A program made the position numbers and the translations under genes. DNA of 64,000 bases from Paludibacteraceae bacterium (GTDB taxonomy: Bacteria > Bacteroidota > Bacteroidia > Bacteroidales > Paludibacteraceae), in NCBI GenBank assembly GCA_017625155.1, contig JAGALP010000004.1, positions 288,414 through 352,413 of the forward strand. Reading direction: 5' to 3'. This document shows positions 15,400 to 50,693 of the stretch, piece by piece (the first letter of the stretch is position 1; each line of letters opens with the position of its first letter). The notes under the pieces were generated by a model that saw only the letters and a list, made by a program, of their open reading frames with translations, did no database searches and had not been told where the DNA came from.

Positions 15400-16584
15400 T
15401 TATAACGCTAGCAAAATATCTACAATGCGTTCGGCTGTGTGACCATCCCACAGTGCAGGGATAGCTCCTTTTTTCCATTGACCGCTAAATAGCAAATCCA
15501 GTGCAGGCTTCACTGCCGCAGGATCGGTGCCTATTAGCTCATTGGTGCCTACGGTGCAAGTCTCAGGACGTTCGGTATTGTCGCGCAAAGTGATACATGG
15601 AACCCCCATCACGGTAGTCTCTTCGGTGATACCTCCAGAGTCGGTTACTACGGCTTTAGCACGCTCTACCATATAGTTAAACTCAAGATATCCCATTGGT
15701 TCTACAATATGCAGATTAGGGAATAACTGACGCAAGGTGGTTTCATTACCCCATAGATTATAAAAGATTTTGGCAGTACGAGGATGGATTGGGAAGATGA
15801 TTGGCAAATCATGTACATTGGTGATAATCTGCTCCATGAGTGCTTTTAGATGTACTTCTTCATCTACATTAGCAGGACGATGCATAGTCATCATGATATA
15901 CTGCCCCTCTGTGAGTTGTAATTCATCGAATACTGCGGGACGGCGGAATCGGTTACGATTAGCCAGTAGCGTATCAATCATCACATTGCCTACATACCAT
16001 ACGCGTTGTGAGATACGTTGGAAAGCATACTGTTCCTCTTGCAGCGCGGGCAATTGGTAATTGGCAATTGGTGATGGGCTATTGACAAGCGTAGCTCCAG
16101 ACATCAGCAGATTCTTGTTGGCAATCTCCGAGGTGGTGAACATATAGTCTGCCAACGAGTCGGTGACCATGCGATTAATCTCTTCGGGCATTGTTAGGTC
16201 CCAACTACGGATACCTGCCTCTACGTGGCATACCTTGGTATTGAGTTTCTTAGCCACAATAGAGCATGCCATAGTACTAGTTACATCACCTACTACTAAT
16301 ACTAAGTCGGTAGGGTGCGCCAACAGATGCTTCTCAAATGCAACCATGATATTAGCTGTCTGCTCAGCTTGTGTGCCGCCTCCACAACCTAAGTTGGCAT
16401 CGGGCATAGGTATATTCAGCTCCTCAAAAAAGGTGTCCGACATATTCTTGTCGTAATGCTGCCCTGTATGTACAAGACTATAATGGATGTCCTTGCCTAT
16501 TGCCTCTGCTGATTTGATAGCGTGGATCAACGGAGCAATCTTCATAAAGTTTGGGCGCGCGCCCGCGATGAGAGTGATATGCAT
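15400..16584 (-). CDS. wecB: UDP-N-acetylglucosamine 2-epimerase (non-hydrolysing)
   Basis: MHITLIAGARPNFMKIAPL.., ..HVEAGIRS.., ..VTDSGGITEE.. hallmark motifs. Carries an extra ~25 aa loop (see findings). Confidence 0.9.
   Translation of the reverse strand: MHITLIAGARPNFMKIAPLIHAIKSAEAIGKDIHYSLVHTGQHYDKNMSDTFFEELNIPMPDANLGCGGGTQAEQTANIMVAFEKHLLAHPTDLVLVVGDVTSTMACSIVAKKLNTKVCHVEAGIRSWDLTMPEEINRMVTDSLADYMFTTSEIANKNLLMSGATLVNSPSPIANYQLPALQEEQYAFQRISQRVWYVGNVMIDTLLANRNRFRRPAVFDELQLTEGQYIMMTMHRPANVDEEVHLKALMEQIITNVHDLPIIFPIHPRTAKIFYNLWGNETTLRQLFPNLHIVEPMGYLEFNYMVERAKAVVTDSGGITEETTVMGVPCITLRDNTERPETCTVGTNELIGTDPAAVKPALDLLFSGQWKKGAIPALWDGHTAERIVDILLAL
16048..16086 (-). repeat. in-frame short-repeat insertion (CAATAGCCC family; AATTGGY x3) inside wecB
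   Basis: Coding strand reads GTC AAT AGC CCA TCA CCA ATT GCC AAT TAC CAA TTG CCC (VNSPSPIANYQLP). Shares the 11-mer CAATAGCCCAT with iorA at 33526-33536. Confidence 0.6.
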
Positions 16585-19827: not shown

Positions 19828-20009
19828 GTGAAACAATTTTGTGGAACGTTATGAAATTTTAATATATGAATTTCAGTGAGTTACGCTTGATAGAATGCTT
19901 AACTTGGTGATAACCAAATGTGGAAACATAACTGACTGATTATTTGTAGAATAAAATTGAACTAAAAATGTTGTTTGAGGTGGCATTTGGTGGAATGAAA
20001 AAAAAGCAG

Positions 20010-20017
20010 TACCTTTG
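20010..20017 (+). promoter_or_regulatory. Bacteroidota -7 promoter box TACCTTTG (dnaA)
   Basis: 64 nt upstream of dnaA ATG 20081. Confidence 0.5.
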
Positions 20018-20080
20018 CACTCGATTTCGTGAAAAACGGATTCTTTTGGAGATCCGCTTGTTCGGATTTCTTCTCAATCA

Positions 20081-22392: not shown

Positions 22393-23802
22393 TTAGACCA
22401 TTTTTTTTATTAGTTTGAATAATTTATACGGCATGTAGCGGAAAGGCATGTCGATAAAGGTTGGGGTAGAGACTACCGATCGGCGATGAGAGAAAGCCAG
22501 GAAACTATCCTTGCCGTGATATGATCCCATACCCGAATTGCCTACACCGCCAAAGGGCACGTCGTGATTCACTATATGCATAATCACATCATTCACACAA
22601 GCACCGCCTGAAGATGTGTGGCGCAATACATAATCGCCATTGGTGCCGAAATAATACAATGCCAATGGCTTCTCACGGTCGGTAACAAAAGTGATAACTT
22701 CATCTATCTCCTTGAATGTCAGCACGGGGAAGATTGGACCGAAAATCTCCTCTTGCATGACAGGGGCGTCTGGACTGACATCCGTCAAGATTGTTGGACT
22801 CATATAACGTTCGGCGCGGTCATAGTGACCGCCGTAATAGATGGACGCTTCGCTATGGGACGGCGTTCCGCCTATTGGACGCCCTGAAGGGCTATTGGAT
22901 ATAGGCAAGTAACTAATCAAACGCTCCAATGCTTTGTCGCTGACGATACGCACGAAGTGTTTTGCCTTTTGTGGGTCTTTAGTTAGTAGGTGTTTCCACT
23001 CTTTGACAAGCAGTTTGAGGAACTTATCTTTTACGTCCTCATGAATCATCAGATAATCAGGTGCAATACATGTTTGTCCTGCGTTGAGGGCTTTGCCCCA
23101 TGCTACGCGTTTGGCTGCTACTTTGAGGTCGGCGGACTTGTCAATGATACATGGGCTCTTGCCACCCAACTCCAGCACAACGGGAGTGAGGTGCTTCGAG
23201 GCTGCTTCCATGACCATCTTTCCTAGCGAAGGGCTGCCTGTGAAGAATATTAAGTCCCATCGCTCAGCAAGCAGCATTTGATTAACCTGACGGTTACCCT
23301 CAACAATAGCGATATACTCCTCGGGGAAAGTGGCGCGAATCATCTCGGTGAGTACACGAGAGACGTTGGGCACATATGGTGAGGGTTTGAGCATGGCTGT
23401 ACAACCAGCAGAGATGGCACCTACCAATGGATTAAGGAGCAGCTGAACAGGGTAGTTCCATGGGGCAATGATGAGCGTATTGCCAAGCGGCTCTTTGATA
23501 ACCTTGCTGGTAGCAGGCATAATCGCAATAGGCGAACATTTGCGTTCGGGGCGCGCCCAACGGCGCATATGCTTGAGGTGATTGCGAATCTCACCATAGA
23601 CAATGCTCAGTTCGGTGAGGTATGCCTCCTCGTAGGACTTGTGAAGGTCGGTCCAAAGGGCTTCAGCGAGTGGCTTCTCATATTGGTGCATGGCGTCGGA
23701 TAACTTGCGTAGCATTTGTTTGCGGAAAGGTAGCGCAAGGGTAGCGCCAGAGCGGAAATACGCTTGTTGCTTGCTGTGGGTCGTGGAAATGTAGTTTTGC
23801 AT
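22393..23802 (-). CDS. NAD(P)-dependent aldehyde dehydrogenase (ALDH3-like)
   Basis: ..ELGGKSP.. and ..GQTCIAPDY.. catalytic Glu/Cys motifs; 469 aa with an extra ~20 aa loop. Confidence 0.9.
   Translation of the reverse strand: MQNYISTTHSKQQAYFRSGATLALPFRKQMLRKLSDAMHQYEKPLAEALWTDLHKSYEEAYLTELSIVYGEIRNHLKHMRRWARPERKCSPIAIMPATSKVIKEPLGNTLIIAPWNYPVQLLLNPLVGAISAGCTAMLKPSPYVPNVSRVLTEMIRATFPEEYIAIVEGNRQVNQMLLAERWDLIFFTGSPSLGKMVMEAASKHLTPVVLELGGKSPCIIDKSADLKVAAKRVAWGKALNAGQTCIAPDYLMIHEDVKDKFLKLLVKEWKHLLTKDPQKAKHFVRIVSDKALERLISYLPISNSPSGRPIGGTPSHSEASIYYGGHYDRAERYMSPTILTDVSPDAPVMQEEIFGPIFPVLTFKEIDEVITFVTDREKPLALYYFGTNGDYVLRHTSSGGACVNDVIMHIVNHDVPFGGVGNSGMGSYHGKDSFLAFSHRRSVVSTPTFIDMPFRYMPYKLFKLIKKMV
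22840..22909 (-). repeat. in-frame short-repeat insertion (CCAATAGC family) inside the ALDH gene
   Basis: Coding strand: TTG CCT ATA TCC AAT AGC CCT TCA GGG CGT CCA ATA GGC GGA ACG CCG TCC CAT AGC GAA GCG TCC ATC. The 17-mer ATAGCGAAGCGTCCATC is identical to iorA 33279-33295, in the same reading frame. Confidence 0.7.
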
Positions 23803-23849: not shown

Positions 23850-23893
23850 CTGTCGTTGCCGTCTCGTTGCCGTCTCGTTGCCGTGTTTGTCTC
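23850..23893. repeat. 11 bp tandem array (GTCTCGTTGCC; 2 perfect + 2 degenerate units) followed by a small hairpin
   Basis: Perfect units at 23861-23871 and 23872-23882; hairpin TGTCTC-GAAA-GAGACA at 23888-23903. Confidence 0.85.
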
Positions 23894-24822: not shown

Positions 24823-24859
24823 TTTTGCAAAAAAATTTGCGAGTATAAAATATTTTTAA

Positions 24860-24867
24860 TACCTTTG
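24860..24867 (+). promoter_or_regulatory. Bacteroidota -7 promoter box TACCTTTG
   Basis: 31 nt upstream of tetR ATG 24898. Confidence 0.5.
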
Positions 24868-24897
24868 CAGCCGAAAAAGCATAAAATCGAATGCATT

Positions 24898-29605: not shown

Positions 29606-30322
29606 ATGAAAAAGATATTTTTTATCCTTGCATTTGGCTTTGGGCTCTTTGCTCCAATGGCAATGGCGCAGGTGCAACCAGGAGATACCACATACAGCGT
29701 ATCGCTACATGTGGGTTATGGGCATAATCTGACATACGGGTCGTATGCGAACTTTGACATCGATGCCTATCTGCCTATCAACAAGCATTTTGATATGCAA
29801 GCCAGTGTCCGAACCAGTACCGCCAATTTCTACACTGCAGGGGTGCAACTCAGACCAAAATTCGTATTGCCCGTGGGCGAACTATACCTCGAAGACCGAC
29901 TGATGATGAGATGGGTCAACAGAGATAGCTTCCGCGATTTTGTACACGCTTTCTCGGTGGGATACAAGATGCAATATGTGAATGTGCAAGTGGGTATGAG
30001 CAATCGTATCATCACTCCATTGCCATACACCAATCGCAGCGAAGATGAGATGATTCTCGAACCATTTGATGCCGTGTATCGCGTGGAGGCGTTTGTGCGA
30101 CCACAGACATCGCCATGGAATATCAGCTTGTGTCTCTCGAATATGGACAACTACCAAGTGGAGCGTATGTGGCAACCCATGTTCTACCTCGGCGGTTGGT
30201 ACGACATCAATGAGCATTGGCGCGTACGCCTATCAGGCAAAATGAAACTGGCAGGAATGTTCCACCTGAATGCACACTACTATGGCGCAGAACTCCGTGC
30301 AGGTGCGGAATACCGATTTTAA
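29606..30322 (+). CDS. putative outer-membrane beta-barrel protein
   Basis: Signal peptide ..LFAPMAMAQV.., alternating amphipathic strands, C-terminal ..AGAEYRF with terminal aromatic residue. Confidence 0.5.
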   Translation: MKKIFFILAFGFGLFAPMAMAQVQPGDTTYSVSLHVGYGHNLTYGSYANFDIDAYLPINKHFDMQASVRTSTANFYTAGVQLRPKFVLPVGELYLEDRLMMRWVNRDSFRDFVHAFSVGYKMQYVNVQVGMSNRIITPLPYTNRSEDEMILEPFDAVYRVEAFVRPQTSPWNISLCLSNMDNYQVERMWQPMFYLGGWYDINEHWRVRLSGKMKLAGMFHLNAHYYGAELRAGAEYRF

Positions 30323-30352
30323 TTAAGAATTTTGAATTATGAATTTTGAATT
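30321..30352 (+). repeat. intercistronic spacer of 14 bp tandem words (GAATTTTGAATTAT x2)
   Basis: The 19-mer AATTAAGAATTTTGAATTA (30321-30339) is identical to the reverse complement of 53741-53759. Confidence 0.85.
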
Positions 30353-31261
30353 ATGAAAAAGAATATACAAATTTGTCTTGGCTCTTTGCTCCTGGTTCTT
30401 GGTTCCATCTTCACCGCTTGCGGACCAGAGGCACGATTGGATATGGTGGGTATGTTTGCTGGTACCTCACCAAAGATTGATGAACGTTTTGAGGAATCCA
30501 AAGTATATAATGACCAGCATGGTTTTACCACGCTGCAAGCACCCGTGGAGGACTATCGCGTGTATGTGTGCACCGACACCCATGTGACCAAAACACAAAC
30601 GCGTTGGACATACTTCATTGATACCTATCGCCATGACCCGCTGTGTCCTGTTGCTGTGCATTTGGGCGATATCATCGATGCGCAAAACTATTTTGATGAG
30701 ATGTACTCGGCATATCAGGCAGTGCCGCTCAATCCAGCGAAAAAGGATACACTGATGGCTGTAGCAGGCAACCACGATATTTATTTTAAGCAGTGGCCAG
30801 AGTATATCAAGTATTTCAAGACGTGCTACTACTACTTCATCGTAGAGACTCCTTCGGGAAAGAAGGACCTGTTCGTGGTCTATGATTCGGCAGACGGCAC
30901 GGTGGGCAGCAAACAGTTGCAATGGCTTCGTGAGACATTGGAGTGGGCAGATAAGCAGGATTTTCGCCATATCGTAGCATGTACGCATACGCATTTCTTC
31001 AAACGTGATGGCTCACAAGGACATACCTCCAACTACACGCAAGAAGAGACATATGCACTACTTAACCTCTTTACCCAGCATGGGGTGGATATGGTATGGT
31101 CGGGACACGACCACTCGCGCGAAATCACCCAAGTGAAGGATATGACATGTATCGTGGTGGACTCGATGAAGGATGAGGACAAGAAACCCTTCTACATGCT
31201 CGTGACCATGGGCGAGAAGATTGATTACGAGTTTGTCTCGGTAGCTGATATCCAAAAATAG
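30353..31261 (+). CDS. metallophosphoesterase lipoprotein
   Basis: Lipobox-like ..GSIFTAC.., and phosphoesterase motifs ..HLGDIID.., ..AGNHD.., ..SGHDH... Confidence 0.7.
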   Translation: MKKNIQICLGSLLLVLGSIFTACGPEARLDMVGMFAGTSPKIDERFEESKVYNDQHGFTTLQAPVEDYRVYVCTDTHVTKTQTRWTYFIDTYRHDPLCPVAVHLGDIIDAQNYFDEMYSAYQAVPLNPAKKDTLMAVAGNHDIYFKQWPEYIKYFKTCYYYFIVETPSGKKDLFVVYDSADGTVGSKQLQWLRETLEWADKQDFRHIVACTHTHFFKRDGSQGHTSNYTQEETYALLNLFTQHGVDMVWSGHDHSREITQVKDMTCIVVDSMKDEDKKPFYMLVTMGEKIDYEFVSVADIQK

Positions 31262-31686
31262 TGCTTATCTACTTTGGCATAGGAACCAATCTGGGCAATC
31301 GCGATGCGAATCTGCAAACGGCACTGCAACTGCTTGACGAGCGAGTAGGGGAGCAGTTGGCGTGTTCTTCGGTGTACAGGAGTGCTCCACAGGGGTTTGT
31401 TTCGGACAATGAGTTTGCGAATATTGTTGCGGTATATGAAACAGATTTTTCGCCCGAAGAAGTGCTACTCCTCACCCAGCAGATTGAGCGCGACATGGGA
31501 CGGACAGAGAAATCAGTCAATGGCGTATATCACGATCGAGTGATAGATATTGACCTGCTGCAAGCAATCCTAAATTCAAAAGCAATAATTCAAAATTCAT
31601 CAACCCTCACTCTGCCACATCCTCGTATGCAAGAGCGTGACTTTGTGATGATTCCTCTCCGCGAGGTAGAAGCATTATTACACTAA
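31261..31686 (+). CDS. folK: 2-amino-4-hydroxy-6-hydroxymethyldihydropteridine diphosphokinase
   Basis: ..YFGIGTNLGNR.., ..YRSAPQG.., ..IDIDLL.., ..LPHPRMQERDFV.. HPPK motifs; GTG start. Confidence 0.85.
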   Translation: MLIYFGIGTNLGNRDANLQTALQLLDERVGEQLACSSVYRSAPQGFVSDNEFANIVAVYETDFSPEEVLLLTQQIERDMGRTEKSVNGVYHDRVIDIDLLQAILNSKAIIQNSSTLTLPHPRMQERDFVMIPLREVEALLH

Positions 31687-31687: not shown

Positions 31688-32380
31688 ATGCAGGTATTAT
31701 ACGAAGACAACCATATAATAGCCGTGAGCAAAACTTGCCACGAGATTGTGCAAGGCGACAAGACGGGTGATACACCTTTGTCGGATATTGTAAAGGCGTA
31801 TATCAAAGAGAAATACCAGAAGCCAGGCGAAGTGTTTTTGGGTGTTACCCACCGTCTGGATCGTCCCACTACGGGCGTGGTGCTGTTTGCACGCACCAGC
31901 AAAGCATTGACACGACTCAATGCTATGTTTCAGTCGCACGAGCAGATACAGAAGACCTATTGGGCGATTGTGGCGACCGAAAACGGAAAACTGAAAACTG
32001 AAAACGAAGTAGTGAAGTTGGAAAACTACCTCTGGCGCAACGAGAAGCAAAATAAGTCGTTTGTAGTCAAGCCAGGAACCAAAGATGCCAAACGCGCTGT
32101 GCTAACTTATAAGTTGATAGCCAAGAGTGAGCGGTATATGCTGTTGGAAATCAATCTGGAAACAGGTCGCCATCATCAGATTCGTTGCCAGTTGGCAGCT
32201 ATCGGATTGCCTATCAAAGGTGACTTGAAATATGGTGCCAAGCGTAGTAATCCCGATGGAGGTATATCGCTACACGCTCGTAAAATAGAATTTGTGCATC
32301 CTGTGAGCAAACTGCCTATCTCAATCACTGCTCCCGTGCCCGATGATGCTCTCTGGCATGTTTTAGAGCAACAGATATAA
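31688..32380 (+). CDS. RluA family pseudouridine synthase
   Basis: Catalytic motif ..HRLDRPTTGVVLFAR... Confidence 0.85.
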   Translation: MQVLYEDNHIIAVSKTCHEIVQGDKTGDTPLSDIVKAYIKEKYQKPGEVFLGVTHRLDRPTTGVVLFARTSKALTRLNAMFQSHEQIQKTYWAIVATENGKLKTENEVVKLENYLWRNEKQNKSFVVKPGTKDAKRAVLTYKLIAKSERYMLLEINLETGRHHQIRCQLAAIGLPIKGDLKYGAKRSNPDGGISLHARKIEFVHPVSKLPISITAPVPDDALWHVLEQQI

Positions 32381-32476: not shown

Positions 32477-34120
32477 ATGAAACACCTATTATTAGGCGAT
32501 GAAGCCATAGCGCAAGGCGCTATTGATGCAGGATTGAGTGGCGTGTATGCTTATCCAGGCACGCCATCTACTGAGATTACTGAGTATATACAATTGAGCG
32601 AAAAGCGAAAAGGCGATGAGGCGAAAGACAAGATTTTTTGCCAATGGGCTACCAACGAGAAGACCGCTATGGAAGGCGCACTTGGTATGTCCTATATGGG
32701 CAAGCGCGCGCTTGTGTGCATGAAGCATGTGGGCATGAATGTCTGCGCGGATGCGTTTATGAATGCCGCCATCACGGGCGTGAACGGCGGATTGGTAGTA
32801 GTGGCAGCGGATGACCCATCTATGCACTCCTCGCAAAACGAACAAGACTCGCGCTTCTATGCTAAGTTTGCTATGATCCCATGCCTCGAACCAAGCAACC
32901 AACAAGAGGCATACGACATGATGCACTATGCCTTCGACCTCTCCGAATCATTGCGCACACCTATCTTATTGCGCGTGACTACGCGCATGGCGCATTCGCG
33001 TGCGGTGGTCGAGACAATGGACACTCCTCGTGAGCAAAATGAGCTATCTGCGCCTGAAAATACCAATCATTTTATTCTTTTGCCTGCTTTCGCACGTAAG
33101 AACTACGCCGAACTTGTGGATGCACAAGCCGATTTTATTCAAACGAGTGAGGAGTCGCAATACAACCAATATACCAAAGGCAGTAATCCGAAGAAAGCCA
33201 TTGTGACGACTGGTATTGCGTATAACTACCTGATGGAGGCTATAGGCGAAGCATCCAATACCCATTATCCATTATCCAATAGCGAAGCGTCCATCCTTAA
33301 GATTACCCAATACCCATTACCAAAGGCATTGATCGATCAGATGGTAGCGGATGGAGCAGAAGAGATTCTTGTTATGGAGGAGGGACAGCCCGTAGTGGAA
33401 GAACTATTGCGCGGTATGGTGCCATCTTCTGTGGCTGTCAAAGGCCGATTGACGGGCGACCTCCCTCGCATGGGCGAACTCACACCCGATAGCGTCGCCC
33501 TCGCCTTATCCAATAGCGAAGCGTCCAATAGCCCATTGCCTATACCCGAACTAGTCGTCGGTCGTCCACCTGCATTATGCCAAGGTTGTGGTCACCGCGA
33601 TATGTATGCTGCGCTCAATGAGGTGGCACGCGAACATGAGAATGCCAAGATTTTCGGCGATATAGGTTGTTACACCTTGGGTGCATTGTCGCCTTTCCAT
33701 GCTATCCACGCTTGTGTGGAGATGGGTGCGAGTATCACTATGGCGAAAGGTGCTGCTGATGCAGGACAGTTCCCTTCGTTTGCGGTGATTGGCGATAGTA
33801 CGTTTACGCATTCGGGTATGACGGGATTGCTGGACTGCGTGAATAGCAAGGCGAATGTGGTAGTGCTGATTTCTGATAACCTCACTACAGGTATGACTGG
33901 CGGACAAGACTCTGCGGGTACTGGCAGACTGGAAGCTATCTGCGAGGGATTGGGCGTAGAGAAAGAGCATGTGCGCGTGGTAGTGCCACTGCCAAAGAAC
34001 ATGGAAGAGATCAAACAAGTGCTCCGCGAGGAGGTGGCTTACAACGGCACCAGTGTTGTCATTGCCCGCCGTGAGTGTATCCAAACTCTCAAACGCCACC
34101 TTAAACAAAACAAGAAGTAA
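32477..34120 (+). CDS. iorA: indolepyruvate ferredoxin oxidoreductase subunit alpha
   Basis: ..GDEAIAQGAIDAGLSGVYAYPGTPSTEI.., TPP-binding ..GDSTFTHSG.., Cys cluster ..CQGCGH... Confidence 0.9.
   Translation: MKHLLLGDEAIAQGAIDAGLSGVYAYPGTPSTEITEYIQLSEKRKGDEAKDKIFCQWATNEKTAMEGALGMSYMGKRALVCMKHVGMNVCADAFMNAAITGVNGGLVVVAADDPSMHSSQNEQDSRFYAKFAMIPCLEPSNQQEAYDMMHYAFDLSESLRTPILLRVTTRMAHSRAVVETMDTPREQNELSAPENTNHFILLPAFARKNYAELVDAQADFIQTSEESQYNQYTKGSNPKKAIVTTGIAYNYLMEAIGEASNTHYPLSNSEASILKITQYPLPKALIDQMVADGAEEILVMEEGQPVVEELLRGMVPSSVAVKGRLTGDLPRMGELTPDSVALALSNSEASNSPLPIPELVVGRPPALCQGCGHRDMYAALNEVAREHENAKIFGDIGCYTLGALSPFHAIHACVEMGASITMAKGAADAGQFPSFAVIGDSTFTHSGMTGLLDCVNSKANVVVLISDNLTTGMTGGQDSAGTGRLEAICEGLGVEKEHVRVVVPLPKNMEEIKQVLREEVAYNGTSVVIARRECIQTLKRHLKQNKK
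33244..33295 (+). repeat. in-frame short-repeat insertion 1 in iorA (CCAATAGCGAAGCGTCC family)
   Basis: GGC GAA GCA TCC AAT ACC CAT TAT CCA TTA TCC AAT AGC GAA GCG TCC ATC. The 22-mer TTATCCAATAGCGAAGCGTCCA (33272-33293) recurs at 33506-33527. Confidence 0.8.
33505..33547 (+). repeat. in-frame short-repeat insertion 2 in iorA
   Basis: CTT ATC CAA TAG.. read in frame as L S N S E A S N S P L P I P. Contains the 22-mer repeat plus TCCAATAGCCC, which is shared with the ALDH gene. Confidence 0.8.
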
Positions 34121-38428: not shown

Positions 38429-38510
38429 GTAAAAAACGCTGAAATACACAAAAAAATAAAAAAAAATAATTTTTTCTTGTGTATTTCTTTGTAAATCAAA
38501 AAAATATTAT

Positions 38511-38518
38511 TACCTTTG
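38511..38518 (+). promoter_or_regulatory. Bacteroidota -7 promoter box TACCTTTG
   Basis: 79 nt upstream of the HU gene ATG at 38597. Confidence 0.5.
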
Positions 38519-38596
38519 CAGCCGATTTCGATTTTCGGAACATTTTTTTTAATTTTTGAGGTAAGTAAAGTATAACTCATTAAATATAACATTATT

Positions 38597-40800: not shown

Positions 40801-42900
40801 ATGAAACGAATTTTACTATTTGTTGTTTGCAGTTTTATCGCGATTACGATTGCTGCAAAGACCGTTACTCCTGCTGCCTCTTTGCCAGCGTATTACGAAA
40901 GTATTGATGGTAAATCGGGTAAAGCGCTTTTTGATGCTGTGCAAAAAGTAACCAAAACGGGCTATTCATCACTAGGATATGATGGATTATGGGATGCATA
41001 TCCATATACCGATGTGCACGAGAACGGCTATGTGTGGGATATGTATAGCGATTGCACATGGAAGAGTATCAATTCCAATCACTGTGGTAACTATAGTAAC
41101 GAATGTGACTGTTACAACCGCGAGCACTCTATCCCCAAATCATGGTATGGTGGCACTACTAGTGGTCCTGGGTGCGATATATTCCATTTGGTTCCTACAG
41201 ATGGAAAAGTAAATGGTATCCGTAGCAACTATCCTTTTGGTGAAGTGTCAAGCGCAGATTATAATAAGCATGGTAATAAGAAAGGAACTGCGAAAAGTAT
41301 TACTATTATTGGCGGTAATACCATTGCAGGTAATACAGGAGCTACTATCTCTGCTTCAGGTACAGTATTTGAGCCACGTGATGAGTACAAGGGTGACTTC
41401 GCTCGTGGATATATGGGTGCGTTGCTCAAGTGGGCAGGCGACAAAGCTTTTACAGATGGAGAAGGTTCTAAAACATTTACTACAAACTTCTCTACAGGCT
41501 CTTTCGGTTTGACCAAATATGGTGTGGCATTGCTTATGAAATGGCACCGTCAAGACCCAGTTTCTAAGAAGGAAATAGACCGCAATAATGGTATTCAACA
41601 AACGCAAGGCAATCGTAATCCGTTTATCGATTATCCTTATATAGCAGAGTATATTTGGGGTGAGAAGGCAGGGGAGACGCTCTACCTCGATGACATCATG
41701 ACCGCCTACGATGCGGACTTCGTGTTGGGCGAAAGCGATGGTAGCCGCGAGGATGTGGTTCATACTCCTGTATTGAGCGTTAGCACTACCAAGGTGAACT
41801 TCCCAAGCGTACTCGTGGATGAGGAATCTTCCGTAAGTATCAAGGTGACAGGTGTTTATCTAACATCCAATGTTACCATCACAATCTCAGGCGAAGATGC
41901 AGATATGTTTGAAACTTCACGTTCTTCGCTCACAATCGCGGAGGCAAATAGTTCGATTAGCCAAAATAACGTTACTCTCACCTACATTCCAACCGAGCAA
42001 GGACAACATACAGCCACACTTCAAATCGCTTCTGAAGGCGCTGAAACACTCACTGCGCAGTTGTATGGTGCTTGCAATGCTTCATGCAACGTGACTTGGA
42101 TGGTAAACGGCGAAGAATATACTGCGGGCAATCCTACTACCACGCTAGCTGCTGGCAGCAAAGTTTCCATACTGCCTACAGCGCCTGCTTCACCTTGTAC
42201 CGAGAGCAATCAGTTTGTAGGCTGGAGCGAAGAGGTTATCACTACACCTCAAGATGAAATGCCTGCTGACTTGTTCTCCGATGCTTCTGAAGCACCTGCT
42301 GTCAGCCATGATGTGGTTTATAATGCAGTATTTGCAGATCTCACAGAAACGGATTCTTCTGCACCAGACACATTGATATTTGCTAAGGATCAAGAAACGG
42401 GATGGACTGTGAGCGGTACCTCATATACAAATAAATATTGGATATTAAAATCAAAGGCATATATTGAATCACCTACTGTAGAGTTGAGCAAATTGCAATC
42501 CATCACGCTCAATGTCCGTACGTATGGTGGTACTTCATATAACATTATCGATATCACGTGCAATGGACAGGTATTAGCTACCATAGATGCTGTAAATAGT
42601 ACTTTGAAAGACAAAGAATGGATACCTTCTTCCATACTTTCAGGTGAGGGCAAGATTCGTTTTAGCAGTACGGACAATACCGATGCGAATGGTCCTGCGA
42701 TAGCTAAAGTAACTATTAACTTGGAAGGTGGAACTTCATATGTTTATACTGATTATATCACTTCTTGTGGTTCTACTACAAATGTGGTAGATATACAACA
42801 ACCACAACATGTAGGTAACAAACTTCTCCGCGATGGACAACTCGTTATAGAGTACGATGGAGTATATTACAACACATTAGGACAACCCACAAACTTCTAA
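40801..42900 (+). CDS. secreted endonuclease I family nuclease with long C-terminal extension and conserved C-terminal sorting-like motif
   Basis: Signal peptide; ..NREHSIPKSW.., ..FHLVPTDGKVNGIRSNYPFGEV.. (Endonuclease_1 motifs); C-terminus ..LLRDGQLVIEYDGVYYNTLGQPTNF. Confidence 0.8.
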   Translation: MKRILLFVVCSFIAITIAAKTVTPAASLPAYYESIDGKSGKALFDAVQKVTKTGYSSLGYDGLWDAYPYTDVHENGYVWDMYSDCTWKSINSNHCGNYSNECDCYNREHSIPKSWYGGTTSGPGCDIFHLVPTDGKVNGIRSNYPFGEVSSADYNKHGNKKGTAKSITIIGGNTIAGNTGATISASGTVFEPRDEYKGDFARGYMGALLKWAGDKAFTDGEGSKTFTTNFSTGSFGLTKYGVALLMKWHRQDPVSKKEIDRNNGIQQTQGNRNPFIDYPYIAEYIWGEKAGETLYLDDIMTAYDADFVLGESDGSREDVVHTPVLSVSTTKVNFPSVLVDEESSVSIKVTGVYLTSNVTITISGEDADMFETSRSSLTIAEANSSISQNNVTLTYIPTEQGQHTATLQIASEGAETLTAQLYGACNASCNVTWMVNGEEYTAGNPTTTLAAGSKVSILPTAPASPCTESNQFVGWSEEVITTPQDEMPADLFSDASEAPAVSHDVVYNAVFADLTETDSSAPDTLIFAKDQETGWTVSGTSYTNKYWILKSKAYIESPTVELSKLQSITLNVRTYGGTSYNIIDITCNGQVLATIDAVNSTLKDKEWIPSSILSGEGKIRFSSTDNTDANGPAIAKVTINLEGGTSYVYTDYITSCGSTTNVVDIQQPQHVGNKLLRDGQLVIEYDGVYYNTLGQPTNF

Positions 42901-42929
42901 ACTTCTGAACTTCTGAACCCTCCAACATA

Positions 42930-46214: not shown

Positions 46215-46271
46215 GTTTTGTGTTTAGTTGACGCGTCTTTGACGCTATTGTTTAATGTTTAGAGTAGGGTA

Positions 46272-48003: not shown

Positions 48004-48999
48004 TCAGTTGTGCAATGTGATGACGGTTATTTCTGCGGGTACGCCGAGGCGGATGGGTAGGGTGCAACCAATGCCAGTGTTGATGTAGAGGGATTGATCC
48101 TCTAATTGGTACCAGCCCTCTGATTCGGTGAACATAAGTGAGGAGAGAGGGTAGCCGAAGAGGCGCACTTGTCCTGCATGCGTGTGTCCGCTGAGAGTCA
48201 GCGGAATATCGGTAGTAGGTACTACCTCTCCTCGCCAATGCGATGGGTCATGAGAGAGGAGGATTTTGAGAGGCGATGAGGCGATAAGGCTATCAGGCAA
48301 GGTCATCGCCTTTGGCAAATCTCCTCGGGAGGTAGTCTGAAATCCTTGTCCCTGACAAGAGGTATTATCCACGCCAATGATTTGCAGGTGTGCGGTGTCG
48401 CGTGAAATGATATACGACTGATTGCGAAGCAGATGCCAACCCAACGTGTCGCGTTGGTAGGCGGTTAGTTGGTTGACTTTTTCTTCTTTCTGTTCATCGG
48501 TTAGCCTGTGGTGGTAAAGTGCAAAATCGTGGTTGCCGAGTACGCTCGTGATACCATTTTTGGCATGCAGTTGGCGGAGCATATCCGTGAACGGAATAGC
48601 TTCTTCTACACCAAAGCCCACGAAGTCGCCCGTAAAGCAGATAAGGTCGGGTTGTTGAGCATTAATCGTATCTATTACGCGTTGCAGGAATGCAGGATTG
48701 TCGGCAAATGAGGATAGGTGCAAGTCGCTGATATGTACAATCTTATATCCGTTGAAAGCAGCGGGTACATGGGGCGACGTGTATGTGGTAGGTTGCACAC
48801 GCAGTTGGAAGCGTCCGAACCAATAGCCATAAAGCATAGTGCCTATGAACAGCAGTACGAGTGCAAGTCCTGTATAGGCAAAAGGTGCATACGGCATAGC
48901 ATGATGACACAGCCGTGCCACTATCCAACAGAGTAGCCATACTAGGGTAGGGCAGAGGAATAGCACTACGATGCAGAATATGAAGAAGGATATAAACAT
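48004..48999 (-). CDS. membrane-anchored metallophosphoesterase (YkuE-like)
   Basis: ..HISDLHL.., ..FTGDFVG.., ..GNHD.., ..SGHTHAGQ.. motifs. ATG 48999 lies 5 nt after the -7 box; the ORF-track TTG start at 49017 falls inside the promoter. Confidence 0.75.
   Translation of the reverse strand: MFISFFIFCIVVLFLCPTLVWLLCWIVARLCHHAMPYAPFAYTGLALVLLFIGTMLYGYWFGRFQLRVQPTTYTSPHVPAAFNGYKIVHISDLHLSSFADNPAFLQRVIDTINAQQPDLICFTGDFVGFGVEEAIPFTDMLRQLHAKNGITSVLGNHDFALYHHRLTDEQKEEKVNQLTAYQRDTLGWHLLRNQSYIISRDTAHLQIIGVDNTSCQGQGFQTTSRGDLPKAMTLPDSLIASSPLKILLSHDPSHWRGEVVPTTDIPLTLSGHTHAGQVRLFGYPLSSLMFTESEGWYQLEDQSLYINTGIGCTLPIRLGVPAEITVITLHN
48268..48302 (-). repeat. in-frame short repeat (GGCGATGAGGCGATA family) inside the phosphoesterase gene
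   Basis: Plus strand GAGAGGCGATGAGGCGATAAGGCTATCAGGCAAGG encodes LPDSLIASSPL. The 16-mer AGGCGATGAGGCGATA is also at 49250-49265. Confidence 0.75.
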
Positions 49000-49056: not shown

Positions 49057-49083
49057 GAGGTGATGAGGCGATGAGGTGATGAG
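49057..49083 (-). repeat. intergenic 8 bp tandem words (GAGGYGAT x3) of the same family
   Basis: GAGGTGATGAGGCGATGAGGTGATGAG directly flanks the terminator hairpin. Confidence 0.7.
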
Positions 49084-49088
49084 AAAAA

Positions 49089-49123
49089 CGCTACCCTAGT
49101 GCAAAGGTAGCGCAAGGGTAGCG
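49089..49123 (-). terminator. intrinsic terminator, member of the CGCTACYCTTGCGCTACCTT hairpin family
   Basis: Minus strand: CGCTACCCT-(17 nt loop)-AGGGTAGCG followed by T5; 34 nt after the stop of the 49157-50110 gene. Confidence 0.7.
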
Positions 49124-49156: not shown

Positions 49157-50110
49157 TTAGAAATTGGTGAGTGATTGTCCCATAGTGTTGTAGGTTTTGC
49201 CGTCGCGGATAATCAGCAATTGACCATTATGGACAACTTTTTGGCTATTAGGCGATGAGGCGATAGGGCTATTAGGCAAGGCTGTATCGGTCTTGTCGAA
49301 ACGGATTGCTATATCGTCATAAGCGAAATAGGCAGGTGCGTTGAGTCCCCATTGTCCGTAGAGGTCGAGCGTACCAACGATATTAAACGCTACGGCATTC
49401 ACTTCACCCAAGACTGACAGATCCCATTTTTGCCATGTGGTGACCACGCTATCCTTGCCATTGTAGAGGGCAAAAGTAGTGCGACTGATCTCGTGGCCAT
49501 TGGCATCTTGACCTACGGCTATGGCGTACAACTTGGTTGTATCGTTGGCAGGAGGATTATAGCCATCGCCGTACACCAAAGAGTTCAGCACATAGCAGAT
49601 GTTGGTGATATACATGTGGTCAATCACACGAGCCTTGCCGTCGGCAAAGGCGATAGTCTGCATTGAAGTATAGTCTGCATTGTAATCATCTACGTGACCG
49701 TTGTGTACGCAGAAGTTTTTTGAGCCGTTGTTGCCGCCATGGAGAGTGGCAAATTGGAGTTCGTACCATGCGGTATTGGCAGGTAGGTCGTTGTTGGTGT
49801 AGCCAGGGTTTGTGAAGTTGGAGATGGCATGTCCACCATTCCAGTAAGGAGCTGTGAAACTGTGGGTTAGCAGAGTGTTTTGTGCGTCGCACCATGTGTA
49901 AACGCCGCCTGCCGTGTAGGTGAGTGTGCCGTTGTACTGCGCATCGTCTACGAGATCCGACCAGGTGGAGATGGTCTTGTTGGCATACTCGAGGGTGTAG
50001 GGCGTGAAGTGCGCATCTGCGTCCTCGAAAGTAAGGGTTCGTAACTCGTAGTCCTGTGCAAGGGCTACATTAGCAAGGCATAATGCCGCAAGAAAAATAG
50101 ATTTCTTCAT
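49157..50110 (-). CDS. secreted DUF4465-like protein with C-terminal sorting-like motif; controlled by a cobalamin riboswitch
   Basis: Signal peptide ..ANVALAQD. Motifs ..WNGGHAISN.., ..WQKWDLSVLGEVNAVAFN.., ..NAPAYFAYDDIAI.. resemble DUF4465 (from memory). C-terminus ..VVHNGQLLIIRDGKTYNTMGQSLTNF. Confidence 0.5.
   Translation of the reverse strand: MKKSIFLAALCLANVALAQDYELRTLTFEDADAHFTPYTLEYANKTISTWSDLVDDAQYNGTLTYTAGGVYTWCDAQNTLLTHSFTAPYWNGGHAISNFTNPGYTNNDLPANTAWYELQFATLHGGNNGSKNFCVHNGHVDDYNADYTSMQTIAFADGKARVIDHMYITNICYVLNSLVYGDGYNPPANDTTKLYAIAVGQDANGHEISRTTFALYNGKDSVVTTWQKWDLSVLGEVNAVAFNIVGTLDLYGQWGLNAPAYFAYDDIAIRFDKTDTALPNSPIASSPNSQKVVHNGQLLIIRDGKTYNTMGQSLTNF
49243..49281 (-). repeat. in-frame short repeat (GGCTATTAGGCGATGAGGCGATAGGGCTATTAGGC) inside the DUF4465-like gene
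   Basis: Encodes ALPNSPIASSPNSQ. Internal 11 nt direct repeat GGCTATTAGGC; shares a 16-mer with 48271-48286 in the same reading frame (IASSP). Confidence 0.75.
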
Positions 50111-50238: not shown

Positions 50239-50496
50239 TATTAACCACACCTCCCTGACCATCTACTTCGGATTTTCCCAAATGCGAAGTAACATGGCAG
50301 GTTGATGGTCAGGGGTGTGTGGATAGGCGTTTTGACTCCCGAGAAACACACTGACCATTGGATACAACAAACGGGTGTTTGACCAAACTGTCAACCACCT
50401 ATACGCGTATATGCGTACCATAGATACTATTGAAAACCTTTGCGTCATGTCGTTGGCTCGATTCCCCGAGAGCGTTCAACTTCACCAACTCCTCGT

Positions 50497-50680: not shown

Positions 50681-50685
50681 CGGTG

Positions 50686-50693
50686 CAAAGGTA
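50686..50693 (-). promoter_or_regulatory. Bacteroidota -7 promoter box TACCTTTG (riboswitch transcript)
   Basis: Immediately upstream of the riboswitch 5' end. Confidence 0.55.

What the first reader, a model, noticed from the sequence alone, without database searches (positions are those of the whole stretch)
33244..33547. iorA contains two in-frame copies of a 22 nt exact repeat that belongs to a family also found in ALDH, wecB and intergenic DNA
TTATCCAATAGCGAAGCGTCCA occurs at 33272-33293 and again at 33506-33527, 234 nt apart. Both copies are read L-S-N-S-E-A-S. Related words flank them: GGCGAAGCATCCAATACC, and TCCAATAGCCCATTGCCTATACCC. The same words recur in the ALDH gene (22840-22909), in wecB (16048-16086) and in the ADH/LRR intergenic spacer (46231-50, CAATAGCGTC on the minus strand). 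Every coding copy has the same orientation and the same frame relative to its host gene (AAT AGC = N-S). That frame avoids the TAG that one of the other frames would create. The pattern recalls in-frame palindromic-element insertions such as the Rickettsia RPEs. I am not aware of it being described for this lineage.
Basis: seen in the sequence. Interest (0 to 1): 0.65.

Follow-up and report, generated by a model that had tools for sequence, protein, structure and literature searches.

The report
Translated mini-hairpin repeat cassettes in IorA
Two identical 22-base stretches inside a metabolic enzyme gene are copies of a tiny DNA repeat (a 7-base word plus a mini-hairpin) that fills flexible loops of many proteins in a group of herbivore-gut Bacteroidales, and close strains carry different repeat cassettes at the same spots.

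Summary
TTATCCAATAGCGAAGCGTCCA occurs exactly twice in iorA (0 expected by chance), and three independent metagenomes hold the same sequence at 160-470x depth.

The 22-mer is one module of a lineage-wide repeat grammar: [TCCAATA-type 7-mer][perfect GC hairpin, usually with a 3-nt GNA loop, e.g. GCGAAGC]G[TCC]. The 18-nt core occurs in more than 113 stretches. Of these, 106 lie in 31 species-level Paludibacteraceae/Bacteroidales MAGs.

Both iorA copies sit in inter-domain linkers, the only low-confidence parts of an AlphaFold model. Strains whose IorA is 94-99.6% identical elsewhere carry at least 7 unrelated cassettes at site 1 and at least 6 at site 2, all built from tandem 7/8/10-nt units. 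The ALDH gene shows a clean empty site versus 1 to about 8 modules.

In orthologous arrays of equal length, stems and 7-mers change about 3 times more slowly than the flanks or loops. Seven of 16 changed stem pairs are compensatory. Loops are more alike within a genome than between genomes.

My reading: these are dispersed hairpin modules whose structure is conserved. They are copied between permissive sites and translated as harmless linkers. How they are copied is unknown. They work like Rickettsia RPEs and cyanobacterial STRR/SDR repeats but belong to neither family. I found no description for Bacteroidota.

The parts
32477..34120 (+). iorA host gene (547 aa; indolepyruvate:ferredoxin oxidoreductase alpha subunit)
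   Evidence: ORF and translation. Pfam POR_N and TPP_enzyme_C. Homologues are named IorA by their sources.
33272..33293 (+). 22-mer copy 1: TTA|TCCAATA|GCGAAGC|G|TCCA (7-mer plus GCGAAGC mini-hairpin module)
   Evidence: Exact match, 0 expected by chance. Module grammar.
33506..33527 (+). 22-mer copy 2, the same module
33239..33295 (+). iorA cassette site 1 (aa 255-273, AIGEASNTHYPLSNSEASI): GCGAAGC hairpin, four 7-mers (TCCAATA CCCATTA TCCATTA TCCAATA), GCGAAGC hairpin
   Evidence: At least 7 unrelated cassettes occupy this site in proteins 94-99.6% identical elsewhere. DNA of 8 alleles aligned. Mean pLDDT is 57 for residues 261-270, and below 50 at 262-264. Outgroups have a short, unrelated linker.
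33491..33547 (+). iorA cassette site 2 (aa 339-357, SVALALSNSEASNSPLPIP): 7-mer, GCGAAGC hairpin, then 7-mer/8-mer units CAATAGCC CATTGCCT
   Evidence: At least 6 unrelated cassettes plus expansions and contractions of 1-9 aa. pLDDT is below 50 over residues 346-363.
32597..32632 (+). iorA cassette site 0 (aa 41-52): AGCGAAA AGCGAAA AGGCGAT GAGGCGA heptamer block
   Evidence: TRF period 7. L007 carries GAGTCGG/GAATCGG units here. L008 carries a 42-nt longer cassette here, and that cassette also occurs at site 1 of L003.
22843..22905 (-). ALDH cassette: three modules with hairpins GCCC-TTCA-GGGC, GGCG-GAA-CGCC and GC-GAA-GC
   Evidence: About 50 of 121 close ALDH representatives have the empty site (..GYM-DNGT-IYHGG..). 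Others carry 1 to about 8 modules. DNA of empty, minimal, window and long alleles compared.
16048..16086 (-). wecB cassette: CAATAGCC CATCAC CAATTGC CAATTAC CAATTGCCC (7-mer array, no hairpin), read VNSPSPIANYQLP
   Evidence: TRF period 7/14. Length is fixed in the 120 closest relatives, with raised point variability at aa 170-177.
46227..46250 (-). Intergenic module CAATA-GCGTC-AAA-GACGC-GTCAAC between the Fe-ADH start and the LRR gene end
   Evidence: Sequence. It fits the grammar 7-mer tail + 5-bp stem + 3-nt loop + GTC.
48270..48302 (-). Octamer-family cassette (GCCTNATC units) inside a metallophosphoesterase gene
   Evidence: The same string AGCCTTATCGCCTCATCGCCT fills iorA site 2 in L006 and L007.
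49243..49281 (-). Octamer-family cassette inside the DUF4465 gene, with a degenerate intergenic copy at 49057-49089
31979..32006 (+). GAAAACG/GAAAACT heptamer cassette inside the pseudouridine synthase gene
   Evidence: Replaced by an octamer cassette (TTAGGCAA TATGGCTA ATGAGGTA) in L006 and L009, which are 94-96% identical overall.
31572..31599 (+). AAATTCA heptamer cassette at the 3' end of the HPPK gene
   Evidence: Replaced by GAGGCAAT octamers in L009. TRF.
30316..30357 (+). Intergenic AATTATG/AATTTTG heptamer array upstream of a metallophosphoesterase gene
   Evidence: Different in L006. TRF.
42891..42918 (+). AAACTTCT octamer array at the end of the endonuclease-I gene and the following spacer
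   Evidence: Different in L006. The CTTCTGAAC family also occurs in the ALDH cassette of L011.

Best explanation
The two 22-mers are two copies of one module of a clade-specific dispersed repeat. A module is a TCCAATA-type 7-mer, followed by a short perfect GC-rich hairpin, followed by G and TCC. The hairpin has a 2-6 bp stem and usually a 3-nt loop, often G-N-A; GCGAAGC is the commonest form. Modules string together head to tail. A frequent order is GCCC..GGGC, then GGCG..CGCC, then GCGAAGC; this makes 54 nt, or 18 codons. Modules are embedded in a wider vocabulary of tandem 7/8/10/11-nt units.

In a group of herbivore-gut Paludibacteraceae these arrays occupy intergenic spacers and also permissive loops and linkers of many housekeeping proteins. 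There they are translated, mostly as Ser/Asn/Pro/Glu/Ala-rich coil.

Shown here:
- The family, its grammar and its clade distribution.
- The linker location in IorA.
- Allelic replacement and empty sites between near-identical strains.
- Gain and loss of whole modules.
- Stems and 7-mers are conserved about 3-fold better than flanks and loops, with compensatory stem changes.
- Loops are more alike within a genome than between genomes.

Inferred mechanism. The modules form unusually stable single-stranded DNA mini-hairpins during replication or repair. The identical 7-mers and the GCGAAGC core give microhomology for slippage within an array, which gains or loses modules. They also allow template switching or short-patch gene conversion between arrays at different loci, which copies and pastes whole cassettes. 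That is why iorA site 1, iorA site 2 and the ALDH gene share exact strings.

Selection on the host proteins only filters the outcomes: in-frame length, no TAG frame, hydrophilic reading, and a location in a disordered linker. Whether a dedicated enzyme drives the copying is not known.
For: Reality and non-randomness: 0 expected by chance; identical unitig in 3 samples at 160-470x.

Family and distribution: the 18-mer TCCAATAGCGAAGCGTCC is in more than 113 stretches of one-genome-per-species contigs. Of these, 106 lie in 31 Paludibacteraceae/Bacteroidales MAGs and 7 are singletons in other phyla, against about 17 chance hits expected for the whole collection.

Grammar: 126 of 154 non-GCGAAGC spacers between two 7-mers are full-length perfect hairpins, versus 4.8 in shuffles. 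Most of the rest are a 7-mer variant plus a hairpin. In total there are 366 modules, 90% with 3-nt loops, and 52% of the non-GCGAAGC tri-loops are G-N-A. Published work shows d(GCGNAGC) mini-hairpins melt at 70-76 C and that only GNA loops form them (PMC13037366).

Heptamer excess: period 7 gives 44 arrays versus 4.6 expected, and period 14 gives 19 versus 0.6. The clade has 16.8 period-7 arrays per 100 kb, versus 1.8 in the chance-hit genomes.

Allelic cassettes: IorA; ALDH, including the empty site; NadA, where the window has the native linker; about 10 swap sites per 19 kb at 94% identity.

Same cassette at different loci: L008 site 0 matches L003 site 1. The octamer string of the window's metallophosphoesterase gene matches iorA site 2 of L006/L007. 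The composite GCCC/GGCG/GC order recurs at non-orthologous sites.

Constraint: in 45 same-length orthologous pairs, the mismatch rate is 0.178 in flanks, 0.060 in 7-mers, 0.059 in stems and 0.156 in loops, with the ascertained 18-mer excluded. Of 203 stem pairs, 187 are unchanged, 8 are broken on one side, 7 changed on both sides and still pair, and 1 changed on both sides and is broken.

Within-genome homogenisation: loops are identical in 38% of same-genome pairs versus 24% of between-genome pairs at non-orthologous sites; 1 of 300 permutations reached the observed value.

Module-sized indels in IorA and ALDH alleles include loss of exactly NSEAS (15 nt).

Linker location: the AF2 model has mean pLDDT 88 and falls below 50 only at residues 262-264 and 346-363. 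Outgroups have unrelated linkers at these positions.
Against: - No copying event was observed directly. No donor-recipient pair, target-site duplication or terminal repeat was found at the ALDH or NadA junctions, where native sequence is replaced and not simply interrupted.
- Nearest-neighbour DNA folding gives no support for the iorA copies (MFE 0, z = +1.6 at site 1) and only weak support for the ALDH array (z = -0.96). The program cannot score 2-bp GNA mini-hairpins, so the hairpin claim for GCGAAGC rests on published melting data and on the palindrome statistics of its sister modules.
- Most of the clade data were collected by searching for the exact 18-mer. Neighbouring modules are therefore linked to an ascertained one, and copy numbers per genome are lower bounds.
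- The data are MAGs and metagenome contigs.
- Stems and 7-mers are better conserved than ordinary coding flanks. That fits a sequence-specific enzyme, or a function, at least as well as passive template switching.
- The wecB cassette shows no turnover among 120 relatives.
Confidence: 0.55

Rival explanations
1. The modules are ultra-small non-autonomous mobile elements. A dedicated enzyme that recognises single-stranded DNA hairpins, encoded elsewhere in these genomes, moves them in trans. This could be an HUH/Y1 transposase of the IS200/RAYT kind or another nuclease/recombinase. The enzyme would recognise the conserved 7-mer plus the hairpin shape, with existing heptamer arrays as preferred targets.
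For: - A conserved linear word lies next to a hairpin that is conserved in structure but variable in sequence.
- Stems and 7-mers are conserved 3-fold better than flanks, and there are 7 compensatory stem changes.
- More than 100 dispersed copies occur in both orientations, in genes and in spacers.
- The family is confined to one clade.
- Loops are more alike within a genome than between genomes.
- Empty versus filled alleles exist.
Against:
- There are no terminal inverted repeats, no target-site duplication and no GTAG-like tag.
- Modules form direct tandem arrays, not inverted doublets.
- Junctions show replacement of native sequence.
- Many other unit families without hairpins show the same site-specific turnover.
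Confidence: 0.25
2. This is ordinary replication slippage only. Each cassette is a local micro/minisatellite that arose and turned over in place. Similarities between loci are convergence caused by low complexity. No copying between loci and no constraint are involved.
For: - Heptanucleotide tandem repeats are the commonest long simple-sequence repeats in bacteria and have been attributed to polymerase slippage (Mrazek et al. 2007, as summarised in PMC4679880).
- Alleles that differ by whole units exist, for example the 30-nt duplication TTLHHTTPHY and the loss of NSEAS.
- The unit sequence differs from allele to allele.
Against: - Exact strings of 17-22 nt and ordered three-hairpin composites are shared by non-orthologous genes and by 31 species-level genomes.
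- Spacers are perfect hairpins 26 times more often than shuffles.
- Stems are conserved and co-vary.
- Loops are shared within genomes.
Confidence: 0.1
3. The peptides are selected at the protein level. S-N-S-E-A-S and its relatives would be functional linker motifs, for example modification, protease or interaction sites, and the DNA repeats would be a by-product.
For: - Sense orientation is favoured among coding sites: 34 sense versus 14 antisense, where about 2:3 is expected from open frames alone.
- The same peptide occurs in IorA (twice) and in ALDH.
Against: - The same DNA occurs in intergenic spacers, in antisense orientation and in a second reading frame.
- Alleles at one site encode unrelated peptides, and an empty ALDH allele is 97.4% identical elsewhere.
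- The cassette residues have low model confidence and are not shared with IorA of other genera.
- The conserved features are a DNA palindrome and a 7-mer, not codons.
Confidence: 0.04
4. The repeats are an assembly or binning artefact, that is, a chimeric contig or a collapsed repeat.
For: The window comes from an uncultured-organism assembly. Word depth rises over the modules (273-415 versus 180) because other loci share them.
Against: - One unitig spans both copies with no differences in three runs at 160-470x.
- The exact protein sits on 7 contigs of up to 515 kb.
- The same cassettes occur in dozens of independent assemblies.
Confidence: 0.01

Closest known systems
Rickettsia palindromic elements (RPEs; Ogata et al. 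2000, as summarised in PMC10969869)
   Same: A dispersed palindromic repeat family that is inserted in frame into many unrelated housekeeping genes. It is translated, tolerated at loops, restricted to one lineage, and has no known transposase.
   Different: RPEs are single elements of roughly 100-150 bp (from my own knowledge). Here the unit is 15-20 nt (7-mer plus mini-hairpin). It builds direct tandem arrays, sits among heptamer and octamer repeats, and is swapped as alleles between near-identical strains. The lineage is Bacteroidota. I did not compare the sequences with RPEs, and no relation is expected.
Cyanobacterial STRR heptamer repeats and small dispersed repeats (SDR; Elhai et al. 2008, Genome Res 18:1484, cited in PMC3116915; the paper itself could not be opened, so details are from memory)
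   Same: Very small (about 21-27 nt) hairpin-forming dispersed elements are found nested within tandem heptameric repeats. They appear to be mobile, and no enzyme is known.
   Different: A different phylum and different sequences. The modules here are shorter, have a constant 7-mer with variable hairpins, and about 70% of classifiable sites are inside coding sequences. STRR and SDR are mainly intergenic or in RNA spacers.
Heptanucleotide long simple sequence repeats (LSSR; Mrazek, Guo and Shah 2007, as summarised in PMC4679880) and TAACTGA repeats (PMC4679880)
   Same: A strong excess of tandem 7-nt units, a patchy phylogenetic distribution, and fast change between strains.
   Different: LSSRs whose unit length is not a multiple of 3 are reported as mainly non-coding. 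Here they are read in frame in essential enzymes, and they carry interspersed conserved hairpins.
REP/BIME elements and REPINs with RAYT transposases (PMC3116915)
   Same: Short hairpin repeats next to a conserved linear tag. They have many copies per genome, are conserved better than neutral DNA, and are homogeneous within a genome.
   Different: No GTAG tag. Hairpins are 7-16 nt, not 20-40 nt. Arrays are direct, not inverted doublets. Most are intragenic. RAYT presence could not be tested.
Tandem repeats of Borg elements that create intrinsically disordered protein regions (PMC9879509)
   Same: Rapidly evolving nucleotide tandem repeats inside ORFs that add disordered, hydrophilic stretches to proteins.
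   Different: Borg repeats within ORFs have unit lengths divisible by 3 and are perfect local arrays. Here the units are 7/8/10/11 nt with hairpin modules, and the same strings are dispersed across loci and genomes.

Membership tests
Rickettsia palindromic elements (RPE) | Element of about 100-150 bp belonging to the RPE consensus families of Rickettsia | tested here: not met
   The module is 15-20 nt and the commonest composite is 54 nt. Its hosts are Paludibacteraceae MAGs. I made no sequence comparison with RPEs.
Rickettsia palindromic elements (RPE) | Palindromic, able to form a hairpin | tested here: met
   126 of 154 spacers are perfect hairpins versus 4.8 in shuffles. There are 7 compensatory stem changes. 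For GCGAAGC itself the support is only the published melting data, because folding software gives none.
Rickettsia palindromic elements (RPE) | Inserted in frame in protein-coding genes and read through | tested here: met
   Open frames run through the cassettes in IorA, ALDH and wecB. There are 48 coding sites among 83. Contigs of runs labelled 'RNA?' span both cassettes (the library type is a guess).
Rickettsia palindromic elements (RPE) | Sits at surface or loop positions compatible with the fold | tested here: met
   In the AF2 model, pLDDT is below 50 only at residues 262-264 and 346-363, which are the two cassettes. These positions are variable-length linkers in other IorA proteins.
REP / REPIN-RAYT | Imperfect palindrome of 20-40 nt with a conserved 5' GTAG tetranucleotide | tested here: not met
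   Hairpins are 7-16 nt and the adjacent conserved word is TCCAATA / GTCC.
REP / REPIN-RAYT | Extragenic location; inverted doublets | tested here: not met
   48 coding versus 20 intergenic sites. Arrays are head-to-tail direct repeats, for example 13 modules in L061.
REP / REPIN-RAYT | Cognate RAYT (Y1 HUH transposase) gene in the same genome | not testable with these tools
Heptanucleotide LSSR / STRR | Head-to-tail tandem copies of a 5-11 nt unit, with 7 nt predominant | tested here: met
   TRF finds 44 period-7 arrays versus 4.6 expected, and 19 period-14 arrays versus 0.6. The clade has 16.8 per 100 kb.
Heptanucleotide LSSR / STRR | Units not divisible by 3 lie mainly outside coding regions | tested here: not met
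   Many period-7 and period-8 arrays lie inside long ORFs. There are three such sites in iorA alone.
Cyanobacterial small dispersed repeats (SDR) | Dispersed hairpin elements of 21-27 nt nested in heptamer repeats | tested here: inconclusive
   The form matches (hairpins nested between 7-mers). The defining paper could not be read, and I made no sequence comparison.
Diversity-generating retroelement | Template/variable repeat pair of equal length, adenine-specific changes, nearby reverse transcriptase | tested here: not met
   Alleles differ in length and are unalignable. No reverse transcriptase is among the called neighbours.
MITE | Terminal inverted repeats and a target-site duplication | tested here: not met
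   Comparison of empty and filled ALDH and NadA sites shows neither.

The most novel reading that the evidence does not exclude
The 15-20 nt modules (7-mer plus a mini-hairpin conserved in shape) would be the smallest known class of actively propagated DNA elements. An unidentified enzyme that recognises single-stranded DNA hairpins, or possibly a priming or repair pathway acting at GNA mini-hairpins, would copy them. They would home into heptamer arrays and so continually rewrite the linkers of essential proteins in a whole clade of gut Bacteroidales.
Probability: 0.25. Interest if true: 0.8.

Novelty: new variant of a known kind. Interest (0 to 1): 0.6.

Why it matters
If this reading is right, a whole clade of abundant herbivore-gut bacteria tolerates repeat DNA being written into, and swapped within, the linkers of core metabolic and DNA-handling enzymes.

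- It gives a natural map of permissive insertion sites in proteins such as IorA, ALDH and NadA.
- It provides strain markers that change faster than point mutations.
- It is a source of error for gene callers, orthologue clustering and ANI-based strain tracking.
- It offers a tractable system for an old open question: how heptamer and hairpin micro-repeats (STRR, SDR, RPE, REP-like) spread without an obvious transposase.

What is new here is the constant-word/variable-hairpin grammar, the GNA tri-loop bias (a property of DNA hairpins) and the compensatory stem changes. Together these argue that a nucleic-acid structure is what gets propagated or maintained, not a peptide.

Tried and rejected
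I replaced it with a one-genome-per-species scan and about 1.08 Mb of fetched clade DNA.
- Phage carriage. The 18-mer has 0 hits in viral contigs. A two-module pattern gave 39 hits, but all 95 matches are collagen-like GGTCCAATA 9-nt repeats or other tandem arrays, and none has a hairpin spacer. So there is no evidence for phage copies.
- Thermodynamic folding of the cassettes as DNA: uninformative for 2-bp mini-hairpins.
- Rfam: no family matches any cassette. The only hits in the window are a cobalamin riboswitch and the DUF805b motif.
- Solved structures: only the N-terminal domain of IorA has PDB relatives, so I used an AF2 model instead.
- Orientation rule. Intergenic arrays point both ways relative to their neighbouring genes. 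The array strand lies on the C-rich strand of its 8-kb locus in 53 of 83 sites, which is too weak and too confounded to interpret.
- DGR, MITE, intron/intein and artefact readings: rejected (see the membership tests and rival explanations).
- The Elhai 2008 SDR paper could not be opened.
- My first measure of stem conservation was biased by requiring perfect hairpins, and one search was biased by the ascertained 18-mer. One search corrects both.
Full report
**1. The observation**

The 22-mer TTATCCAATAGCGAAGCGTCCA occurs at 33272-33293 and 33506-33527 on the plus strand. It occurs nowhere else in the window, even with 3 mismatches, and none of 100 dinucleotide shuffles gave a match. Both copies lie in the 547-aa ORF 32477-34120, which carries POR_N and TPP_enzyme_C domains. 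Its close homologues are named indolepyruvate ferredoxin oxidoreductase in Paludibacteraceae MAGs. Both copies read L-S-N-S-E-A-S.

- in the ALDH gene (22843-22905, minus strand);
- in wecB (16048-16086, minus strand);
- in the Fe-ADH/LRR spacer (46227-46250, minus strand).

Logan unitigs from three independent gut-metagenome runs reproduce 33067-33688 without a single difference at 160-470x depth. Extra depth over the modules comes from other loci that share them. So this is not an assembly artefact.

**2. What the two iorA sites are**

I aligned the 120 closest IorA cluster representatives (91-99% identical). They are 94-99.6% identical everywhere except at two short sites, which are exactly where the 22-mers lie.

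Site 1 (aa 255-273) holds at least seven unrelated cassettes:
- AIGEASNTHYPLSNSEAS (the window)
- VKGENGKVKTES
- VIGERREAKGES
- CLENGAKSAYSLEFREAS
- ALQHDTILHHTTPHYT
- AIRLLGNEAIGAS
- TLSGLQTPDSRKEAYT

Site 2 (aa 339-357) holds at least six:
- SNSEASNSPLP (the window)
- GDRILDAGFQ
- GDRLLAPGCQ
- MPNSLIASSPKSV
- QFTVDRGQLTV
- SPHSLIASSPNSEASNSP

The two sites assort independently of each other.

The DNA of eight alleles shows that every cassette is a short tandem array of 7-, 8- or 10-nt units: GTGAAAA, AGGCGAA, GACTCCA, CACCATACTA, GCTATTAG, GTTGACA, CTGGATG, CCGGATG, GCCTCATC. There is also a third such site at aa 41-52.

Some alleles differ by whole units. Examples are a 30-nt duplication, a 27-nt insertion, and the loss of exactly the 15 nt that encode NSEAS.

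IorA proteins from other genera have unrelated linkers of variable length at all three positions. The window's residues are therefore not ancestral. In IorA the repeats have overwritten existing linkers more than they have been added as pure insertions.

An AlphaFold2 model built on a 47-sequence alignment has mean pLDDT 88 and pTM 0.87. It drops below pLDDT 50 only at residues 262-264 and 346-363, which are the two cassettes. Both are coil between folded domains.

**3. The phenomenon is genome-wide in this lineage**

- Tandem Repeats Finder on the window plus eight related loci (229 kb) gives 44 period-7 arrays (4.6 expected from a third-order Markov model), 19 of period 14 (0.6 expected) and 22 of period 8 (5.9 expected). 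Many lie inside long ORFs.
- Compared with a relative 96% identical over 15.6 kb, the window differs by whole-cassette swaps at five places.
- Compared with another relative 93.6% identical over 19 kb, it differs at about ten places. About half are in coding sequence: ALDH, HPPK, pseudouridine synthase and iorA twice.
- In ALDH, about 50 of 121 close representatives have an empty site (..GYM-DNGT-IYHGG.., up to 97.4% identical elsewhere). The others carry from one module (PISNSEAS) to about 50 extra residues.
- At the DNA level, the minimal ALDH allele replaces GATAATGGAACT with CCCATATCCAATAGCGAAGCGTCC.
- In NadA the roles are reversed. The window has a native-looking linker and eight relatives have a cassette.
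- The wecB cassette, by contrast, has a fixed length in the 120 closest relatives and changes only by point substitutions.

**4. The grammar behind the 22-mer**

I scanned one genome per prokaryotic species for the 18-nt core TCCAATAGCGAAGCGTCC. Of these, 106 lie in 31 MAGs labelled Paludibacteraceae or uncultured Bacteroidales, from colon, caecum and faeces of water buffalo, roe deer, sheep, yak and others. The other 7 are singletons in other phyla, in line with the roughly 17 chance hits expected for the whole collection.

In this DNA (about 1.08 Mb together with the earlier loci), consecutive TCCNATW 7-mers are either directly adjacent or separated by a hairpin plus G. Of 154 spacers other than GCGAAGC, 126 are full-length perfect hairpins, against 4.8 in shuffled spacers. 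Most of the remainder are a 7-mer variant followed by a hairpin, or a hairpin with one mismatch.

Among the 366 modules found, stems are 2-6 bp and 90% of loops have 3 nt. Even without GCGAAGC, 52% of the tri-loops are G-N-A. G-N-A tri-loops closed by C-G are the hallmark of the extraordinarily stable DNA mini-hairpin d(GCGNAGC). Its Tm is 70-76 C, and only GNA loops form it (PMC13037366). This points to a DNA structure and not an RNA structure. Nearest-neighbour folding software cannot score such 2-bp hairpins and gave no support for the iorA copies.

Read this way:
- The ALDH cassette is CCTATA | TCCAATA-GCCCTTCAGGGC-G | TCCAATA-GGCGGAACGCC-G | TCCCATA-GCGAAGC-G | TCC.
- iorA site 1 is a GCGAAGC hairpin, four 7-mers and a second GCGAAGC hairpin.
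- iorA site 2 is a 7-mer, a GCGAAGC hairpin and then 7/8-mers.

The order GCCC..GGGC, then GGCG..CGCC, then GCGAAGC (20 + 19 + 15 = 54 nt, 18 codons) recurs at many non-orthologous sites. Arrays can be long: 13 modules fill a 330-nt spacer in L061.

Other unit families also carry hairpins. One example is GTTTAGAG-AAC-GGCGCT..AGCGCC-TNCA-GTTTAGAG, which sits at iorA site 0 in one strain and at site 1 in another.

**5. Where the modules sit, and how they are read**

The 185 arrays collapse to 83 distinct sites:
- 34 are sense-coding. Of these, 29 are read TCC-AAT-AGC (S-N-S), 5 are read CCA-ATA-GCG (P-I-A), and none uses the TAG frame.
- 14 are antisense-coding.
- 20 are intergenic.
- 15 are ambiguous.

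The TAG-avoidance argument is right.

Intergenic arrays point either way relative to their neighbours. I therefore attribute the sense bias in genes to the hydrophilic S/N/P/E/A reading being better tolerated than the antisense readings. That is an inference.

Contigs of runs labelled 'RNA?' span both iorA cassettes. They also show other alleles co-existing in one community. The library type is a guess, so this is weak evidence that the cassettes stay in the transcript.

**6. The modules are constrained or homogenised; they are not drifting junk**

I compared 45 same-length orthologous array pairs located through their flanks, excluding the ascertained 18-mer. Mismatch rates per site were:

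| Region | Mismatch rate |
|---|---|
| Flanks | 0.178 |
| 7-mers | 0.060 |
| Stems | 0.059 |
| Loops | 0.156 |

Of 203 stem pairs, 187 were unchanged and 8 were broken on one side. Seven had changed on both sides while still pairing, and 1 had changed on both sides and no longer paired. By a rough estimate of my own, independent mutation would give well under one such compensatory pair.

At non-orthologous sites, hairpins of one stem family have identical loops in 38% of within-genome pairs against 24% of between-genome pairs. Only 1 of 300 label permutations reached the observed value.

Together with the exact strings shared between iorA site 1, iorA site 2 and ALDH, this argues for ongoing copying or gene conversion between arrays within a genome. 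It also argues that the hairpin is maintained.

**7. Mechanism**

Shown:
- a clade-specific, dispersed module family whose structure is conserved;
- its location in permissive linkers and spacers;
- gain and loss of whole modules;
- replacement of whole cassettes between near-identical strains;
- empty sites.

Inferred:
- The modules fold as stable ssDNA mini-hairpins during replication or repair.
- The identical 7-mers and the GCGAAGC core provide microhomology for slippage within an array, and for template switching or short-patch conversion between arrays.
- Host-protein selection only filters for frame, absence of stop codons, hydrophilicity and linker location.

I cannot exclude a dedicated hairpin-recognising enzyme; I put that rival at about 25%. 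The better-than-coding conservation of the 7-mer and stems is what one would expect if something reads them. Pure local slippage is disfavoured. Protein-level selection on the peptide and artefact are nearly excluded.

**8. Comparison with known systems**

The system works like Rickettsia RPEs: palindromic repeats inserted in frame into many genes, with no known transposase. It also resembles the cyanobacterial combination of STRR heptamers and 21-27 nt small dispersed hairpin repeats (Elhai et al. 2008; from memory, because the paper was not available).

It is a member of neither family. It fails the defining features of REP/RAYT elements (no GTAG tag, direct arrays, mostly intragenic), MITEs (no TIR or TSD), DGRs, and Borg-type codon-periodic repeats (PMC9879509). 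It shares the heptamer excess of bacterial LSSRs (Mrazek 2007 via PMC4679880), but unlike those it is read in frame.

Full-text searches found nothing on this for Paludibacteraceae or Bacteroidota. No Rfam family matches. No phage contig carries the modules.

Earlier notes from this scan report the same words in aroA, mnmA, polA, vsr, priA, COG0523 and UPF0597 genes of related MAGs. These are AI leads that agree with my reading. They are not independent evidence.

**9. Verdict**

- This is a new variant of a known kind: a translated micro-repeat or palindromic-element invasion.
- The copying mechanism remains open.

Noticed in passing
window 56897-56976 and 23853-23884; L009 upstream of ALDH: The window has a composite array of GAGGTTCCGAT x4 followed by ATAGGTGGCAA x3 at 56897-56976. 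A look-alike composite (GAAGTCCCTAT x4 followed by ATAGGTGGCA..) sits upstream of ALDH in L009. At that position the window instead has a different 11-mer array (GTCTCGTTGCC x3). So whole 11-mer composites also move between intergenic sites.
   Followed up: partly
window about 43780-43840 (nadA, 42930-43892): There is a second hypervariable site in NadA, just before the C-terminal Cys motif. The window has a long Cys-rich stretch there. Relatives carry a short GGGC linker, an AATTCAA heptamer array (L102) or a CACTACA-type array (L068).
   Followed up: partly
L007 14374-20784; L001 14150-17587; L002/L004/L008 13652-15717: The region downstream of the iorAB-aminotransferase genes is a gene-content hotspot. 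The window, L003, L005 and L006 have a CoA-transferase there. L002, L004 and L008 have a PIF1-type helicase. L001 has a DUF559-DEAD helicase. L007 has a cluster with Peptidase_C39, E2-CBASS (weak hit), JAB and ThiF genes that looks like a defence island.
   Followed up: no
L061 3557-3890: A 330-nt intergenic array of at least 13 modules lies between a 708-aa gene and the next start codon. It is the largest array seen, and three spurious antisense ORFs of 100-164 aa run through it.
   Followed up: partly
window 8364-8397, 19999-20032, 24849-24882, 38500-38533, 63771-63804 and others: The repeat families D3, D6 and D10 of the repeat finder share TACCTTTGCA/TACCTTTGTA preceded by an A/T-rich run. 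This looks like the Bacteroidetes TAnnTTTG promoter box upstream of genes, not a mobile repeat.
   Followed up: no
window 50491-50693 (-) and 55815-55849 (-): Rfam gathering-threshold hits: a cobalamin riboswitch and a DUF805b RNA motif.
   Followed up: no
L125-L163 (viral contigs): GTCCAATAG is common in phage and giant-virus contigs as part of collagen-like GGTCCAATA (G-P-I) 9-nt repeats. It is a chance look-alike that will contaminate any pattern search for the module.
   Followed up: yes
L031 (2.2-kb contig labelled uncultured Alistipes): This contig carries the module in the same gene context as Paludibacteraceae locus L037. It is probably a mis-binned Paludibacteraceae contig.
   Followed up: no
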